A DNA stretch of 64,000 nt from Escherichia coli (GTDB lineage Bacteria > Pseudomonadota > Gammaproteobacteria > Enterobacterales > Enterobacteriaceae). The notes beneath the pieces were generated by a model. That model did not search any database and had not been told where the DNA came from. It saw only the letters and a list, made by a program, of their open reading frames with translations. The stretch lies in assembly GCF_044647545.1 (NCBI RefSeq), contig NZ_CP172818.1; one strand, given 5' to 3'. Shown here piece after piece: positions 16,076-55,424 of the stretch. The position numbers and the translations under genes were made by a program. Positions within the stretch are counted from its first letter, which is position 1. Every line of letters begins with the position of its first letter.

Positions 16076-18265
16076 TCAGAATTGATACGTGCCGGTAATG
16101 CTGAAATTACGCGGTGCGCCGTAGACGATAGAACCTTCCACGTTGGTATCGTAGGTTTTGTCGAACAGGTTATTGACGTTCCCCTGTAACGAGAAGTTTT
16201 TCGTCACCTGGTAGCGGGTGAAGAGATCCACCAGCGCGTAGCTACCTTGCTCGGCGCGGAAGGTGCCATACGGTGTCACGGTGTCGGTATACACGCGATT
16301 TTGCCAGTTAACACCACCGCCGACCGTCAACTCTGGCATGACAGGCAACCGATAGCTGGTGAACATTTTAACCGTGGAGCGTGGCAGATTAGGATTAACG
16401 GCGTTTCCTTCGTTATCTTCTGCAATATAGCGTGTTGCGCCAAACGTCAGCTGCCAGTTGTCGGTAATTGCGCCGTTGAGTTCAAATTCCACACCTTTAC
16501 TGACTGTCCCATCCACCGCTTTATAGGCGGTTTCGCCGTTGCTGCCGGGGATAGGTGTACCGGTGGACTGAGCTACATTATCCTGCTCAATACGGAAGAT
16601 GGCTAACGTGGTGGTCAGACGGCTATTCATCCAGTCCGATTTCAGACCCAGCTCGTAGTTGTTACCGGTGATTGGAGCCAGATATTTGCCTGAACTGTCA
16701 CGATCATTTTGCGGCTGGAAAATAGAGGTATAGCTGGCGTAGGTCGACCAGTTGTCATTGATGTCAAACACCAGACCAGCATAAGGCGTGGTGTGGTTTT
16801 TCTCCATGCTGTAAGTCAGCGTATCAACCCGCCAGTTGGTATAACGAGCGCCGAGGATCAGATGCAGCGGATCGGCAAGGGTGACACGAGTGGCAGCATA
16901 TAACGATTTCATATGTGTGGTATCGTCCTGCGCCAGGCTCTGTGGTGACCAGTCGGTTTGTGGGAAATTGCCATTAAAGTTGTAGAAACTGCCAATTTCA
17001 TCCGGGAAGATGTTGGCCCATGAACTGATGTAACGATTGTTTTGTTTGCTGTAACTGCCACCAAACATTAGATTGTGCTGACGACCAAACAATTCATAAC
17101 TACCGTCAGCAAACAAATCCAGCGCATCAACTTTACGTTTGCCGCTGTTCCAACCGGTGCCGCCGACATAATCAAAACCAGGTCCATAATTACTGTATGG
17201 CCCAACCAGCATACCATCCGCTTTGTTTACATAGGCATCGACATACATCATTTTACTGTCAAATTCGACTTCGGAGTGGGTGGCATTCAGTGTCGCTTGC
17301 CAGGTATCAGCAAACCGCTGCTTGAGGGTCATAAAGACCTTGTTGATCTCTTTATCGTTATACGCCCAGTCAGGTGCGGTACTGCGTGCGCGATCGTAAC
17401 TGTTGCTGCTGCCATCAGTATTCCAGCGCGGTAAACCGCCCCAGGTTGGGCTATTAACATCAATGCGCTGATATTCGTAACCGGCTGAAAGCATCGTAAG
17501 ATCGCCTAAATCAGCATCGACAATGCCGGAGAAGAAGGTCTTTTCACTGTTGTAGCGGTCCAGCCATGAGTCGTTATTCTGGTAGCCGCCGACAATTCGT
17601 GCGCGGATTTTACCATCTTCGGTGAGTGGGCTTTGTAAATCCGCCACATACCGTTCTTTGTTCCAGCTACCGTATTCCGCCGAGACATCGCCTTTAAATT
17701 CACGACTGGTCGCGTGTTTTCGAACCATATTAATTGCCGCAGATGGATTACCCGTCCCGGTCATGAGGCCTGTCGCGCCACGCACTACTTCTACGCGTTC
17801 AAACAGTGCCATATCAGAAAGTGCGTCGCCCAGATTCCAGCGCGATTCAAAATAGGTGGGGATACCATCAACCATATAGTTATCGATCTGGAATCCGCGG
17901 GAATAATAAAGAGCACGATCGGAATCCGCCTGACTTTTGCTGATCCCCAGCGTGTTTTCCATCACTTCGCCCAGCGTTTGTAACTGCTGATCTTCCATCC
18001 GCTGCTGGCTAACAATAGTGACCGACTGAGGAATATCACGTTGAGTCATCTGCATTTTTGTACCCGCAGAGGTAGACGTTACGTTGTAATCATTTTCGCC
18101 ATCATCTGGGGCTGTGGCTGAACCCTCAACAATCACCGTTTCTTCAGTGACTGGTGCAGCAAAAGCGGCGGAAGGTAATAGTGCCAGTGCTATGCAACCG
18201 GCAAGGAGTGACGGTTTGATGATAGCTTGATGTTGATTATCCCTGTTAAATTGTGTCGAAAGCAT
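16076..18265 (-). CDS. fhuE: TonB-dependent outer membrane ferric-coprogen/rhodotorulic acid receptor
   Basis: ORF track 729 aa; signal peptide, TonB box region, C-terminal ...GTYQF beta-barrel signature. Confidence 0.95.
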   Translation of the reverse strand: MLSTQFNRDNQHQAIIKPSLLAGCIALALLPSAAFAAPVTEETVIVEGSATAPDDGENDYNVTSTSAGTKMQMTQRDIPQSVTIVSQQRMEDQQLQTLGEVMENTLGISKSQADSDRALYYSRGFQIDNYMVDGIPTYFESRWNLGDALSDMALFERVEVVRGATGLMTGTGNPSAAINMVRKHATSREFKGDVSAEYGSWNKERYVADLQSPLTEDGKIRARIVGGYQNNDSWLDRYNSEKTFFSGIVDADLGDLTMLSAGYEYQRIDVNSPTWGGLPRWNTDGSSNSYDRARSTAPDWAYNDKEINKVFMTLKQRFADTWQATLNATHSEVEFDSKMMYVDAYVNKADGMLVGPYSNYGPGFDYVGGTGWNSGKRKVDALDLFADGSYELFGRQHNLMFGGSYSKQNNRYISSWANIFPDEIGSFYNFNGNFPQTDWSPQSLAQDDTTHMKSLYAATRVTLADPLHLILGARYTNWRVDTLTYSMEKNHTTPYAGLVFDINDNWSTYASYTSIFQPQNDRDSSGKYLAPITGNNYELGLKSDWMNSRLTTTLAIFRIEQDNVAQSTGTPIPGSNGETAYKAVDGTVSKGVEFELNGAITDNWQLTFGATRYIAEDNEGNAVNPNLPRSTVKMFTSYRLPVMPELTVGGGVNWQNRVYTDTVTPYGTFRAEQGSYALVDLFTRYQVTKNFSLQGNVNNLFDKTYDTNVEGSIVYGAPRNFSITGTYQF

Positions 18266-51852: not shown

Positions 51853-53103
51853 ATGGAAAGTAAAGTAGTTGTTCCGGCACAAGGCAAGAAGATCACCCTG
51901 CAAAACGGCAAACTCAACGTTCCTGAAAATCCGATTATCCCTTACATTGAAGGTGATGGAATCGGTGTAGATGTAACCCCAGCCATGCTGAAAGTGGTCG
52001 ACGCTGCAGTCGAGAAAGCCTATAAAGGCGAGCGTAAAATCTCCTGGATGGAAATTTACACCGGTGAAAAATCCACACAGGTTTATGGTCAGGATGTCTG
52101 GCTACCTGCTGAAACCCTTGATCTGATTCGTGAATATCGCGTTGCCATCAAAGGCCCGCTGACCACTCCGGTTGGTGGTGGTATTCGCTCTCTCAACGTT
52201 GCTCTGCGCCAGGAACTGGATCTCTACATCTGCCTGCGTCCGGTACGTTACTATCAGGGCACTCCAAGCCCGGTTAAACACCCTGAACTGACCGATATGG
52301 TTATCTTCCGTGAAAACTCGGAAGACATTTATGCGGGTATCGAATGGAAAGCAGACTCTGCCGACGCTGAGAAAGTGATTAAATTCCTGCGTGAAGAGAT
52401 GGGCGTGAAGAAAATTCGCTTCCCGGAACATTGCGGCATCGGTATTAAGCCGTGTTCTGAAGAAGGCACCAAACGTCTGGTTCGTGCAGCGATCGAATAC
52501 GCAATTGCTAACGATCGTGACTCTGTGACCCTGGTGCACAAAGGCAACATCATGAAGTTCACCGAAGGCGCGTTTAAAGACTGGGGCTACCAGCTGGCGC
52601 GTGAAGAGTTTGGCGGTGAACTGATCGACGGCGGCCCGTGGCTGAAAGTTAAAAACCCGAACACCGGCAAAGAGATCGTCATTAAAGACGTGATTGCTGA
52701 TGCATTCCTGCAACAGATCCTGCTGCGTCCGGCTGAATATGATGTTATCGCCTGTATGAACCTGAACGGTGACTACATTTCTGACGCCCTGGCAGCGCAG
52801 GTTGGCGGTATCGGTATCGCCCCTGGCGCAAACATCGGTGACGAATGCGCCCTGTTTGAAGCCACCCACGGTACTGCGCCGAAATATGCCGGTCAGGACA
52901 AAGTAAACCCAGGCTCTATTATTCTCTCCGCTGAGATGATGTTACGCCATATGGGCTGGACTGAAGCCGCAGACTTGATTGTTAAAGGTATGGAAGGCGC
53001 AATCAACGCCAAGACTGTAACCTATGACTTCGAACGTCTGATGGAAGGCGCTAAACTGCTGAAATGTTCAGAGTTTGGTGACGCGATCATCAAGAATATG
53101 TAA
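51853..53103 (+). CDS. icd: isocitrate dehydrogenase (NADP); 3' end carries the e14 attachment junction
   Basis: ORF track 416 aa, [38 protein letters not shown]. Confidence 0.97.
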
Positions 53104-53126
53104 TTACTACATGTGTTAAATATTGT

Positions 53127-53157
53127 AACGGGCGTATAACACGCCCGTTGTTTTTTG
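53127..53157 (+). terminator. rho-independent terminator after icd
   Basis: aacgggcg-tataaca-cgcccgtt followed by ttgtttttt. Confidence 0.8.
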
Positions 53158-53172
53158 TTAGGCTGCTAACGG

Positions 53173-53205
53173 TTATCAAAATTTTATCAAAAAAAGTTAT
53201 CAAAA
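53173..53205 (+). repeat. three direct repeats of TTATCAAAA (candidate integrase arm-type or accessory-factor sites near attL)
   Basis: ttatcaaaa at 53173-53181, 53184-53192 and 53197-53205 in the icd-ymfD intergenic region. Confidence 0.4.
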
Positions 53206-53520
53206 CCCCTCGGTAGTTTTGGGGTAGGCTGGCCGGTCAGGTGGTAGTTCTACTACTAGTCTCCCACATAGATATTCCTTAGCTTTTTATTATTGCTGGC
53301 GGACGCTCGTTAATATTTAAGGTCTTCATTGATTAAGACATCCCCAAAGTTAGTTATGTATTCACTGTTATTAGGACAATTATGAATTACCACTCCTTAC
53401 ACCCGCTCAAATATTGTTAAATTGCCGGTTTTGTATCAACTACTCACCCGGGACTCGCCAGGGGACAGCCAACAGGCATTGGGTGCAATCACCTTAGCGT
53501 TCAGGTACATGCGGAATGTA

Positions 53521-53543
53521 AAAAAGGCCGCGAGCGCGGCCCC
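53521..53543 (-). terminator. rho-independent terminator after ymfD
   Basis: plus strand aaaaaggccgcgagcgcggcccc; on minus strand a GC hairpin followed by UUUUU. Confidence 0.7.
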
Positions 53544-53596
53544 TTCACATACATCTTTAGTACTGAGACTGTTTAACCTAGGGAATTATTATCGTA

Positions 53597-54262
53597 TTAT
53601 ATTGCATTACAACTCCCAACAGTGACATATGAACTTCCTGCTTTACTCCACGACTTTAATATTTCAAGGCCATGTGAAGAACATATTTCTTGCACTGCGA
53701 GTTCATCGAGTAATCCATAGTAAGAAACACTTTTTGAATTTTTGTAAATGTATCCGTAAAGATGTTTTCTTCCTGTTTCGTATTTTTTGAAGTATGAGCT
53801 TTTATATTGATTTACAATAAGAGTCTCACCTCCTGATTTTAGTAATCTCTTGATGCTAAGAACTATTTTGTCGATTGTATCCCGACAAGGAACGGCAGAG
53901 AGAACATTAGAGCAAAGGATGAAATCGTAACCCCCAATTATTTTGTCGACATCCTCGAAAGCAACTGTATTTGCATTTTTATAATATCGTGGGACATAGT
54001 CAATAATTTTAGTTTTAATTCCTCTAATAATTTGCTCTCTTTCAAGTTGCCTTTTCGAGTCTAGAAAAGTAACTTCATCAAATTTACTGATTAATTCATC
54101 AGAATATCTAAGTTTTCCGCAGCCAAAATCAAGGGCGTGGCCATTTTTCTCAATGCTTCTAATATACTCGCAAAGATATCTAGAGGGCATCGTATGAGGT
54201 TTTGCTGCATTCTCTGAGCGAATATTAACTCCGTGCATATTATAGTTCAAAGCAAGTACCAT
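53597..54262 (-). CDS. ymfD: e14 putative class I SAM-dependent methyltransferase
   Basis: ORF track 221 aa; motif I ALDFGCGKL, acidic beta-2 end VTFLD, DFILCSNVL; AT-rich; start abuts ymfE stop with 0-nt gap. Confidence 0.85.
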   Translation of the reverse strand: MVLALNYNMHGVNIRSENAAKPHTMPSRYLCEYIRSIEKNGHALDFGCGKLRYSDELISKFDEVTFLDSKRQLEREQIIRGIKTKIIDYVPRYYKNANTVAFEDVDKIIGGYDFILCSNVLSAVPCRDTIDKIVLSIKRLLKSGGETLIVNQYKSSYFKKYETGRKHLYGYIYKNSKSVSYYGLLDELAVQEICSSHGLEILKSWSKAGSSYVTVGSCNAI

Positions 54263-54976
54263 TCAATTAATGTTATTTTTAGTGAAAAATTCTTTTATTT
54301 TATCGTCCGGGATTTTTCCGACTTGACTTTCAGTTCTGGGCTTAACTGTCAAAGCAAAGATAATACCACTCACTGAGAATGATAAAATTACAAAAAAGAA
54401 TAAAGACAGCAAAGAACCTTCAACATGAAAAATATCCATTTGTTTGCAAAAAAAGATTATTAGGAAGGAAATTAATGCAATTATCGAAAATTCAAAAAAT
54501 ATCCAAAAATAGTATACTTTATTCCAGAAGAGTTCAATATAATGTTTGTCTTCAATTTTTCTTACTTCAGGGTAATATAGATTGCTCATTACATTGTGAG
54601 CTTCATCTTTATTTAATTTTCTGTTGACTCCAGCTCTCCGTGATAACGGTTTTATAATTAGATGCTTATCCCAAAGATATCGCACCCGAAGTAGTTTGGC
54701 TGCATTGTTATGTAGGTCTAACGCACCGCTAATTAAATATGCAAAAATCGCAAAAGCACAAGGTAATATACCAAAAGATAGTGCCCAATTAATAAAGCTC
54801 TCATGATCTTTAATAGGTGGGACATACTTGGTTGGTAATGTTATTAAAGGGATGTATTCGTAAATAACTAGAAGTATGCAATATATTAGCGTATTTAAGA
54901 AAGTTGCTTTATGAAGTTTAGGCAACATTTCATTATAATTTTTGGGGGGTTCGAACATATTATTCACCTGAGTCAC
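54263..54976 (-). CDS. ymfE: e14 multi-pass inner membrane protein (start ambiguous: ATG 54976 or GTG 54967)
   Basis: ORF track 237 aa; several hydrophobic helices; AT-rich. Confidence 0.8.
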   Translation of the reverse strand: MTQVNNMFEPPKNYNEMLPKLHKATFLNTLIYCILLVIYEYIPLITLPTKYVPPIKDHESFINWALSFGILPCAFAIFAYLISGALDLHNNAAKLLRVRYLWDKHLIIKPLSRRAGVNRKLNKDEAHNVMSNLYYPEVRKIEDKHYIELFWNKVYYFWIFFEFSIIALISFLIIFFCKQMDIFHVEGSLLSLFFFVILSFSVSGIIFALTVKPRTESQVGKIPDDKIKEFFTKNNIN

Positions 54977-55167
54977 GCTTTAGGATAGTGTAATGGTAAT
55001 ATTTAATTAAGTGTCATTATATACTTTTCAGTAGGTTAGTTACAATTTTTTGTATCTGTTCAGGCTGACCTAGCTTCGCTGACAGACAATATTGTGATCA
55101 GTAGCACGTATCGAGGAGGAGTAGCGCTACAAATTTGACGCTGGGTGAGAATCTGAAATTGATAGAA

Positions 55168-55235
55168 ATGAAATAATGAAATAATGAAATGATGAAATGA
55201 TGAAATGATGAAATGATGAAATGATGAAATGATGA
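55168..55235. repeat. octanucleotide tandem repeat (ATGAAATR) x8.5 in ymfE/lit divergent intergenic region
   Basis: atgaaat recurs with exact 8-nt period at 55168, 55176, 55184, 55192, 55200, 55208, 55216 and 55224, then a partial atga; spacer base a (x2) then g (x6). Confidence 0.9.
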
Positions 55236-55424
55236 CAGAGTGTCCAGTGGGCACGGATGGTGTCTTACGACATGCTTACCTTAATCGTTCCCAGTGTGCC
55301 TATAGCAGATATTCTAAACATGTCGATAATTCATTACGCATATAGTATCGAACATAGAAAAAACTGAAGATTCATCTTATTTTGTATATACTACCTAGCC
55401 CAACAATGTAGAGGTTAACGAAAA

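What the first reader, a model, noticed from the sequence alone, without database searches (positions are those of the whole stretch)
53104..53596. icd-ymfD intergenic region: direct repeats and hairpins near the prophage left junction
Just after the icd terminator there are three direct repeats of TTATCAAAA (53173-53205) at 11-13 bp spacing. That pattern is expected for integrase arm-type sites or accessory-factor sites near attL. The roughly 490-bp AT-rich non-coding region also ends with a strong minus-strand terminator for ymfD (53521-53543). From memory, K-12 annotation places a candidate small RNA (C0293) in this intergenic region; I cannot verify its coordinates from sequence alone.
Basis: partly seen in the sequence, partly recalled or inferred. 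Interest (0 to 1): 0.35.

Follow-up and report, generated by a model that had tools for sequence, protein, structure and literature searches.

The report
e14 integrase arm-binding sites beside icd
The three TTATCAAAA repeats just after the icd terminator are almost certainly the sites where the e14 prophage integrase grips one arm of its attachment site; this is an ordinary, textbook feature of lambda-type prophages.

Summary
(G/T)TTATCAAAA occurs three times at 53172-53205, spaced 11 and 13 bp, and these are the only exact copies in 64 kb. The icd terminator (53125-53157), the annotated sRNA C0293 (53441-53512, +) and a minus-strand ymfD terminator (53521-53543) are all present.

The repeats are best read as the P'1-P'3 arm-type sites of the e14 integrase IntE.
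- A fourth copy lies in the other arm of e14, 128 bp from the core.
- Phage 21 uses the same icd site and has the same geometry (-129; +231, +243, +256, against e14's -128; +233, +244, +257). Its motif differs (TTCCCCAAAA) and GenBank annotates it as attP subsites.
- Five further relatives carry three ...CAAAA repeats next to int.
- IntE has a lambda-type arm-DNA-binding domain, and one segment of it changes along with the motif.
- In IMG/VR the triple repeat sits about 71-72 bp after an icd fragment, upstream of an IntE-like gene.

Homology between elements ends right after the third repeat. A variable slot of anti-phage defence genes begins there (ymfD-ymfE-lit in this window). The right 390 bp of the flagged region, including C0293, is the edge of that cargo.

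Binding itself is inferred, not shown. This is ordinary, essentially known biology.

The parts
52939..52949 (+). Position of the 11-bp e14 core (attL crossover site) inside icd. Here it reads ATGTTACGCCA, two synonymous changes away from the K-12 core ATGCTGCGCCA.
   Evidence: The MG1655 e14 feature starts at 1196209, which is this position. BS-04 has the same variant at attL but the K-12 form at attR.
52939..53103 (+). Last 165 bp of icd. In K-12 this is the prophage-borne replacement 3' end. In this window it is a different allele.
   Evidence: With the terminator (52939-53157), it is 85.8% identical to the MG1655 e14 copy, 90.9% to MG1655 icdC and 94.1% to the phage 21 copy. All differences from MG1655 stop at 53143.
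53125..53157 (+). icd intrinsic terminator: a 10-bp stem (53127-53149) followed by a T-run. This segment lies between the core and the P' arm in all icd-integrating elements examined.
   Evidence: (inverted repeat I2). A terminator is annotated at the equivalent place in phage 21.
53172..53181 (+). P'1, putative IntE arm-type site GTTATCAAAA. Together with the next bases it also fits the IHF consensus (TATCAAAATTTTA, 53174-53186).
53183..53192 (+). P'2, putative IntE arm-type site TTTATCAAAA.
53196..53205 (+). P'3, putative IntE arm-type site GTTATCAAAA. Homology among e14-type elements ends just after it.
53206..53325 (.). About 120 bp of unknown role. It is shared at roughly 77-85% identity with about 100 other E. 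coli e14-type elements that carry different cargo, and is absent from most others. On the minus strand it aligns weakly with the 5' part of the Rfam STnc150 model.
   Evidence: (H3). No fold signal on either strand.
53441..53512 (+). C0293, an annotated candidate sRNA (b4806) of unknown function, restricted to the K-12-type e14.
   Evidence: Annotation. Full-length region found in only 282 of 5426 genomes. Papers report it as K-12-only and of unknown function, with no phenotype on overexpression. No Rfam family matched at gathering score. Fold z-score +0.19. No terminator on the + strand.
53521..53543 (-). Intrinsic terminator downstream of ymfD: GGCCGCG-loop-CGCGGCC followed by UUUUUU.
   Evidence: fold of 53505-53600, minus strand.
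53597..56318 (.). Cargo inserted between the P' arm and intE: ymfD (methyltransferase fold, -), ymfE (-) and lit (Peptidase_U49 / PADLOC Lit, +).
   Evidence: In Kp4865-4 and about 30 IMG/VR contigs int directly abuts the P' arm, 12-23 bp away.
56409..57536 (-). intE, a 375-aa tyrosine integrase with an N-terminal lambda-type arm-DNA-binding domain. It is the presumed reader of the repeats.
   Evidence: Pfam PF09003, E=1.2e-37, residues 1-73, plus PF00589. Alignment with lambda Int and Int21.
57517..57762 (-). xisE, the excisionase.
   Evidence: Pfam PF07825.

Best explanation
The three direct repeats (G/T)TTATCAAAA at 53172-53205 are the P'1-P'3 arm-type binding sites of the e14 attachment site. 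They are recognised by the N-terminal arm-binding domain of the integrase IntE, encoded 3.2 kb to the right.

As in lambda, Int protomers would bind an arm site with the N-domain and the core (52939, inside icd) with the catalytic domains. Together with the single P-arm copy at the far end of the prophage, this would build the higher-order complex for integration and, with XisE, excision.

The unusually long core-to-P' distance (233-257 bp) exists because the element must carry a replacement icd 3' end and its terminator between the core and the arm.

What is shown: the repeats exist, their phasing is conserved, they recur in the other arm, they sit at the position of the phage 21 sites, they co-occur with IntE-type integrases, and IntE has the arm-binding domain. 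What is inferred: actual IntE binding, the bridging mechanism and the role of any bending protein.

The remaining 390 bp of the flagged interval is the left edge of a variable defence-gene cargo slot. It holds the weakly supported sRNA C0293 and the ymfD terminator.
For: 1. Non-random: the three copies are the only exact ones in 64 kb and all lie within 33 bp.

2. Both arms: GGTTATCAAAAC occurs once in the P arm, 128 bp from the core, in MG1655, BS-04 and 689R6. It also occurs in Klebsiella phage Kp4865-4, about 125 bp from the record end, with different flanks.

3. Positional homology with phage 21, which uses the same icd site. Its sites lie at -129 and at +231, +243, +256, against e14's -128 and +233, +244, +257. 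The phage 21 record OL657228.1 annotates those three repeats as attP subsites P1P2P3 with consensus YYTTCCCCAAAA.

4. Family-wide architecture: Providencia PSTCR8lys, PPompW, ST13-OXA48phi12.4 and vB_EcoS-640R1 (integrases 47-56% identical to IntE) each have three direct ...CAAAA repeats immediately downstream of the int stop.

5. IntE has Pfam Arm-DNA-bind_1 (E=1.2e-37) and aligns with lambda Int from the N-terminus.

6. Covariation: 30 distinct N-domains of integrases associated with TTATCAAAA, down to 69.6% overall identity, keep PNLYPL[YFL]SR[KT]. The CCCCAAAA and CTGCAAAA users have x[KY][LF]D[KR]R at the same place.

7. Specific association: of 80 IMG/VR loci analysed that carry the triple repeat, 56 have an icd C-terminal fragment ending 71-72 bp upstream. 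51 have an IntE homologue downstream on the opposite strand, 12 bp to 3.7 kb away. The other roughly 20 are unrelated simple tandem arrays.

8. Binding-site signature: the 2-nt and 4-nt spacers vary freely (8 and 16 variants) while their length is fixed, and sequence conservation collapses right after repeat 3.
Against: The P' sites lie 233-257 bp from the core, far more than in lambda (from memory roughly +50 to +90), and no bending-protein sites between them were identified.

Repeat 1 plus its spacer fits the IHF consensus WATCAANNNNTTR exactly, so IHF could also bind there.

The conservation statistics come from loci found by exact motif match, so motif conservation there is circular. Only the smaller sets are free of that bias; one of them (L026) shows variants TTATCAAAT and TTATCAAAG.

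The covariation rests on essentially two clades.

In this window the attL core differs by 2 of 11 bases from the K-12 core. The sites may therefore no longer serve excision in this strain.
Confidence: 0.85

Rival explanations
1. The repeats are IHF (or other nucleoid-protein) binding sites that bend the P' arm, rather than integrase arm-type sites.
For: TTATCAA contains the IHF core WATCAA. 53174-53186 (TATCAAAATTTTA) is one of only six exact matches to WATCAANNNNTTR in 64 kb, against 2.8 expected. A long attP would plausibly need bends.
Against: Only the first repeat fits. The fit follows automatically from two TTATCAAAA units spaced 11 bp apart. Three IHF sites at 11-13 bp spacing cannot be occupied together, because an IHF footprint is about 35 bp (established knowledge). 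The positionally equivalent repeats in phage 21 and four other relatives (TTCCCCAAAA, CTCTGCAAAA) do not resemble IHF sites at all. The motif tracks the integrase lineage, whereas IHF is a host constant.
Confidence: 0.05
2. The conserved block is maintained because it encodes the 3' part of a minus-strand small RNA homologous to Salmonella STnc150. That RNA would end at the reverse side of the icd terminator, with the UUUUGAUAA repeats acting as RNA elements.
For: Rfam STnc150 (RF01402) aligns to 53117-53322 (-) at 27.5 bits, E=0.002, covering the terminator and repeats. It also aligns to five other e14-type P' arms at 31-42 bits. In Salmonella STnc150 lies between icdA and STM1239 on the strand opposite icdA and is detected as a band of about 90 nt on Northern blots. 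It is a ProQ-associated RNA.
Against: All scores are far below the family threshold of 60 bits. In e14 the minus-strand side of the hairpin is followed by ACAAUAUUUAAC, not the U-run seen in the Salmonella consensus. No convincing minus-strand promoter lies just upstream (and inspection). No fold signal was found (z=-1.16 for 53104-53215 minus). An RNA role does not explain the extra copy in the P arm or the different motif at the same place in phage 21. The similarity is more simply explained if the Salmonella locus is a relic of an e14-type P' arm.
Confidence: 0.05
3. The repeats bind another phage protein (excisionase, repressor or a replication/partition factor), or are a chance AT-rich low-complexity array.
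For: The region is AT-rich (41.8% GC). About 20 unrelated AT-rich viral contigs contain similar tandem arrays by chance.
Against: In lambda-type attP the Xis and Fis sites lie in the P arm, not between the core and int (established knowledge). Candidate Xis-type direct repeats (AATGAGTTATA twice, 26 bp apart) are indeed visible in the e14 P arm instead. Chance is excluded by exact conservation across Escherichia and Klebsiella elements, and across further IMG/VR contigs whose integrases are down to about 70% identical, at fixed spacing and a fixed distance from icd.
Confidence: 0.04

Closest known systems
Phage lambda attP arm-type sites P'1-P'3 (with P1 and P2), bound by the Int N-terminal domain
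   Same: Both have three directly repeated sites of about 10 bp in the int-proximal arm and at least one more copy in the other arm. In both the sites are unrelated to the core sequence. The cognate integrase has the same N-terminal Arm-DNA-bind_1 domain.
   Different: The motif is GTTATCAAAA, not lambda's C/AAGTCACTAT (lambda consensus from memory). The P' sites are 233-257 bp from the core because an icd 3' end and terminator intervene. Only one clear P-arm copy was found. In e14, 3.2 kb of cargo separates the arm from int.
Phage 21 attP repeated dodecamers (GenBank OL657228.1 misc_feature 'P1P2P3, consensus YYTTCCCCAAAA')
   Same: The target is the same (icd) and the core is the same 11-bp core as K-12 e14. 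Both have the icd' segment, then the terminator, then three repeats. The geometry is almost identical: -129; +231, +243, +256 against -128; +233, +244, +257. The integrases are 60% identical. Both motifs end in CAAAA.
   Different: The motif core differs (TTCCCC against GTTATC). This matches a divergent segment of the Int N-domain (CKLDKRTG against PLYSRKVN). From memory (Wang et al. 1997, J Bacteriol 179:5705, not readable here), it also matches the reported poor cross-excision between 21 and e14. In phage 21 int abuts the arm.
Rfam RF01402 STnc150 (Salmonella sRNA between icdA and STM1239)
   Same: It occupies the same genomic position (just downstream of icd, opposite strand). Its 3' third aligns with the icd terminator plus UUUUGAUAA repeats.
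   Different: The score is 27.5 bits against a threshold of 60. The middle of the model is replaced or deleted, and e14 lacks the U-run after the hairpin on the minus strand. Nothing here shows a transcript in E. coli.
C0293 (b4806), an E. coli K-12 candidate sRNA
   Same: The coordinates and sequence are identical.
   Different: There is nothing to add. Function is unknown and no promoter, terminator or structure signal was found here.

Membership tests
Arm-type sites of a lambda-family tyrosine integrase | Two or more direct repeats of about 10 bp in the int-proximal (P') arm | tested here: met
   Three 10-mers at 53172, 53183 and 53196, spaced 11 and 13 bp.
Arm-type sites of a lambda-family tyrosine integrase | The same motif is also present in the other (P) arm | tested here: met
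   GGTTATCAAAAC lies 128 bp from the core at attR of MG1655, BS-04 and 689R6, and about 125 bp from the record end in Kp4865-4. The attR of the window's own strain lies beyond the window.
Arm-type sites of a lambda-family tyrosine integrase | The motif is distinct from the core-type sequence | tested here: met
   The core is ATG(C/T)T(G/A)CGCCA. It has no resemblance to GTTATCAAAA.
Arm-type sites of a lambda-family tyrosine integrase | The cognate integrase carries an N-terminal arm-DNA-binding domain | tested here: met
   PF09003 Arm-DNA-bind_1, E=1.2e-37, residues 1-73 of IntE.
Arm-type sites of a lambda-family tyrosine integrase | The motif is conserved with, and changes with, the integrase lineage | tested here: met
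   TTATCAAAA goes with all IntE-type integrases 70-100% identical. TTCCCCAAAA or CTCTGCAAAA goes with relatives 47-60% identical. An N-domain segment covaries. In effect only two clades are compared.
Arm-type sites of a lambda-family tyrosine integrase | Bound by the Int N-domain and required for recombination | not testable with these tools
   This needs EMSA or footprinting and excision/integration assays.
Rfam RF01402 STnc150 | Covariance-model score at or above the gathering threshold (60 bits) | tested here: not met
   27.5 bits in the window and 31-42 bits in related loci.
Rfam RF01402 STnc150 | A discrete minus-strand transcript | not testable with these tools
   No expression data are available. 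The promoter scan found only weak minus-strand candidates.
IHF binding site | Match to WATCAANNNNTTR | tested here: inconclusive
   Repeat 1 fits (53174-53186) but repeats 2 and 3 and the P-arm copy do not. The fit is a by-product of the 11-bp repeat spacing.
Rho-independent terminators (icd and ymfD) | GC-rich hairpin followed by a U-run on the transcribed strand | tested here: met
   icd. ymfD: although the scan did not report it.
C0293 sRNA | Sequence and coordinates of the annotated gene | tested here: met
   b4806 at 1196711-1196782 maps to 53441-53512, and the sequence is 100% identical.
C0293 sRNA | Independent signals of an sRNA gene (promoter, terminator, stable or conserved structure) | tested here: not met
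   No + strand promoter-like site lies upstream and no + strand terminator was found. Fold z=+0.19. No Rfam family matched at gathering score.

The most novel reading that the evidence does not exclude
The e14-type P' arm plus the icd terminator may double as the template of a minus-strand small RNA. On this reading the Salmonella sRNA STnc150 is a domesticated relic of such an attachment-site arm, and e14-carrying E. coli make a related RNA whose UUUUGAUAA repeats are the transcribed integrase arm sites. That would be an sRNA gene born from a prophage attachment site.
Probability: 0.12. Interest if true: 0.5.

Novelty: already known. Interest (0 to 1): 0.2.

Why it matters
It matters little for discovery. 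It assigns a concrete function to an unannotated repeat in one of the best-studied bacterial genomes: MG1655 RefSeq lists no feature there. It also explains why e14 and phage 21 share a target yet, from memory of the literature, do not cross-excise well: the core is the same but the arm motif and the Int N-domain segment differ.

In practice the (G)GTTATCAAAA(C) triplet, about 71-72 bp after an icd 3' end, is a precise landmark for delimiting e14-type prophages. It also marks the start of a variable defence-gene slot between the arm and int.

Tried and rejected
It gave nothing useful and used the only scan of that collection. A stricter three-copy pattern on viral contigs worked.

2. IntE-based retrieval from IMG/VR mostly returned prophage predictions cut off at or near int. 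Only 5 of 34 loci with downstream sequence reached the arm.

3. The primary att-site papers were not held: Wang et al. 1997, Brody and Hill 1988, Mehta et al. 2004. A text search for arm-type plus phage 21 found nothing. What I say about the phage 21 minimal attP (366-418 bp) and about e14/21 cross-excision is therefore from memory only.

4. A paper hit for 'c0293' as the anti-conjugation gene abjA refers to a CFT073 locus tag and is unrelated.

5. An inverted 11/12 match to the phage 21 dodecamer at 53216-53227 (minus strand CCTACCCCAAAA) looked like a fourth, heterologous arm site. It is not conserved in the related element L210, so I treat it as chance.

6. A 28-nt imperfect direct repeat flanking the triplet (family D1, 71% identity) is likewise not conserved.

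7. I first suspected that Kp4865-4 uses a different target with a compact attP. I dropped this when its terminator matched the Klebsiella-type sequence just downstream of the icd stop seen in L071.

Full report
**What is in the sequence**

The window carries icd (51853-53103, +) followed by an e14-type prophage: ymfD (53597-54262, -), ymfE, lit (55425-56318, +), intE (56409-57536, -) and xisE. It aligns with MG1655 e14 over 12.3 kb at 98.3% identity.

In MG1655 the e14 feature begins 165 bp before the icd stop, and C0293 (b4806) is annotated at 1196711-1196782. These map to window 52939 and 53441-53512.

- Exact TTATCAAAA lies at 53173, 53184 and 53197. These are the only exact copies in 64 kb.
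- They extend to the 10-mers GTTATCAAAA, TTTATCAAAA and GTTATCAAAA, spaced 11 and 13 bp.
- The icd terminator is at 53125-53157.
- The interval has 41.8% GC, against 50.3% for the whole window.
- A GC hairpin followed by U6 lies on the minus strand at 53521-53543, downstream of ymfD.

**The repeats compared with the other prophage end and with phage 21**

The attR end is outside the window, so I fetched it from MG1655 (L001), BS-04 (L212) and phage record 689R6 (L211). Each has a single GGTTATCAAAAC in the P arm, 128 bp from the 11-bp core.

Klebsiella phage Kp4865-4 has an integrase 84% identical to IntE. It carries the same triple repeat after a different terminator, with int starting 15 bp later. 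It also has the same P-arm copy within otherwise unrelated flanks.

Phage 21 integrates at the same icd core. It has three tandem dodecamers at exactly the same place after the terminator and one copy in its P arm. Positions relative to the core are -129; +231, +243, +256, against -128; +233, +244, +257 in e14. The phage 21 GenBank record annotates those repeats as 'attP ... 3 subsites P1P2P3; consensus YYTTCCCCAAAA'.

From memory, Wang et al. 1997 placed the phage 21 minimal attP between 366 and 418 bp, bounded by such dodecamers. The span measured here is 397 bp for phage 21 and 395 bp for e14. I could not read that paper.

**The integrase family**

IntE has Pfam Arm-DNA-bind_1 over residues 1-73 (E=1.2e-37), plus the catalytic domain. 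It aligns with lambda Int (36% identity) and Int21 (60%) from the N-terminus.

Four further relatives, 47-56% identical, use other targets: Providencia PSTCR8lys, PPompW at ompW, ST13-OXA48phi12.4 and vB_EcoS-640R1. Each shows three direct repeats ending in CAAAA immediately downstream of its int stop. The e14 triplet is therefore the local version of a family-wide P' arm.

The motif tracks the protein. Thirty distinct N-domains from TTATCAAAA-associated integrases, down to 69.6% overall identity, keep PNLYPL[YFL]SR[KT]. The CCCCAAAA and CTGCAAAA users have x[KY][LF]D[KR]R at that position. This is suggestive covariation, but it rests on only two clades.

**Specificity of the association**

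A three-copy pattern search of IMG/VR returned 88 stretches, of which 80 loci were analysed.
- 56 have an icd C-terminal fragment ending 71-72 bp upstream of repeat 1.
- 51 have an IntE homologue (70-97% identity) downstream on the opposite strand.
- The remaining roughly 20 are unrelated perfect tandem arrays in AT-rich contigs.

Among 56 distinct icd-linked segments the spacer lengths (2 and 4 nt) are invariant while their sequences vary (8 and 16 variants). Conservation collapses from the first bases after repeat 3.

Because those loci were selected by the exact motif, motif conservation there is circular. The smaller sets free of that bias agree (blastn and IntE-based). One of them shows variants TTATCAAAT and TTATCAAAG.

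**Mechanism**

The best-supported reading is that the repeats are IntE arm-type sites P'1-P'3. With the P-arm copy, they let Int protomers bridge arm and core in the recombination complex. The long core-to-arm distance is imposed by the icd 3' end and terminator that the element must carry.

Binding, bridging and the bending factors are inferred. I give this reading a confidence of 0.85.

**Rivals**

- IHF: repeat 1 plus its spacer matches WATCAANNNNTTR. This follows automatically from the 11-bp spacing. It fails for repeats 2 and 3 and has no counterpart in the phage 21-type motifs.
- A minus-strand STnc150-like sRNA: the Rfam model aligns here and at every e14-type P' arm tested, but at 27-42 bits against a threshold of 60. 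E. coli lacks the U-run that follows the hairpin in the Salmonella consensus. The simpler reading is that the Salmonella locus, between icdA and STM1239, is a relic of such an arm.
- Chance, or an accessory protein: excluded or unlikely, as set out in the Rival explanations section.

**The rest of the interval**

Homology among e14-type elements ends just after repeat 3. In Kp4865-4 and about 30 viral contigs int follows within 12-23 bp. Elsewhere up to 3.7 kb of unrelated genes is inserted.

These insertions are largely anti-phage defence genes:
- Lit in this window;
- a PtuA/PDC-M01 pair in L210;
- an NsnA-like DUF262 protein in 689R6;
- TIR-NLR, DarT, dCTP deaminase, AbiU-like and SIR2 proteins in other contigs.

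So 53206-53596 is the left edge of the K-12-type cargo. The full segment occurs in only 282 of 5426 E. coli genomes.

C0293 lies inside this segment. It is annotated, reported as K-12-only, and of unknown function, with no overexpression phenotype. It shows no promoter, terminator or fold signal, and no Rfam family matched the window there at gathering score.

The sub-segment 53206-53325 is shared at about 77-85% identity with about 100 other elements that carry different cargo. I have no function for it.

**A mosaic left end**

All differences from MG1655 on the left side stop at 53143, inside the terminator. From 53144 to about 57500 the window is identical to K-12.

The icd' plus terminator segment is closer to phage 21's (94%) and to K-12 icdC (91%) than to K-12 e14's own copy (86%). 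The core reads ATGTTACGCCA. BS-04 has that variant at attL but ATGCTGCGCCA at attR.

This suggests the element reached this lineage, or was repaired, by homologous recombination with a crossover in the terminator. Excision may be impaired as a result.

**Verdict**

The feature is an ordinary instance of a well-known kind. Its direct homologue in phage 21 is already annotated, and e14 itself has been studied for decades. Interest is low, at 0.2.

Noticed in passing
window 51853-53143 versus 53144-57500: There is a mosaic boundary inside the icd terminator. Everything left of 53144 (icd, the prophage-side icd 3' end, the terminator stem) is a different allele from MG1655, while 53144 to about 57500 is identical to it. 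The core reads ATGTTACGCCA, not ATGCTGCGCCA. In the similar strain BS-04 the attL and attR cores differ by 2 of 11 bases, which could block Int-mediated excision.
   Followed up: partly
window 53206-56408; L210 6210-9077; L002 3278-5110; IMG/VR loci L221, L239, L248, L250, L262, L267, L270, L281: The slot between the third arm site and the int stop is empty (12-23 bp) in many elements. Elsewhere it holds 0.5-3.7 kb of unrelated anti-phage genes: Lit, a PtuA/PDC-M01 pair, NsnA-like DUF262, TIR-NLR, DarT, dCTP deaminase, AbiU-like and SIR2. This is a defence-cargo hotspot with a sharply defined left border.
   Followed up: partly
window 53117-53322 (-); L004 15-87; L026 8278-8433; L036 9773-9910; L071 8411-8552; L210 6012-6258: The Rfam STnc150 model (Salmonella, icdA/STM1239 spacer) hits every e14-type P' arm at 27-42 bits, below the threshold of 60. 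This suggests the Salmonella sRNA locus is a relic of an e14-type attachment-site arm.
   Followed up: partly
L001 (MG1655) about 16316-16360; L212 (BS-04) about 16600-16650, outside the window: The e14 P arm contains a direct repeat AATGAGTTATA twice, 26 bp apart, between the arm-type copy and the core. These are candidate XisE binding sites.
   Followed up: no
window 53216-53227 (-): CCTACCCCAAAA is an 11/12 match to the phage 21 arm dodecamer, in inverted orientation, right after the e14 sites. It is not conserved in the related element L210 and is probably chance.
   Followed up: yes
window 55168-55235: A perfect tandem array of an 8-bp unit (ATGAAATG, 8.5 copies, 98% matches) lies in the ymfE-lit spacer. 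It produces the repetitive 'HHFIISSF' spurious ORF.
   Followed up: no
L036 4749-4972; L026 3456-3667; L004 2720-2928: There are near-threshold matches (36-44 bits against a threshold of 47) to Rfam STnc100, 1-2.5 kb from int on its xis side, in e14-type elements of other hosts. The window's own e14 was not scanned for STnc100 at a sub-threshold E-value.
   Followed up: no
window 1106-1442 (-) and 3303-3471 (+): The rne 5' UTR element and SraB are the only Rfam families reaching their gathering score in the window. This is ordinary chromosomal context.
   Followed up: no
window 53521-53543 (-): The consensus terminator scan missed the clear ymfD terminator that folding shows. This is a reminder that a negative from that scan is weak evidence.
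   Followed up: yes
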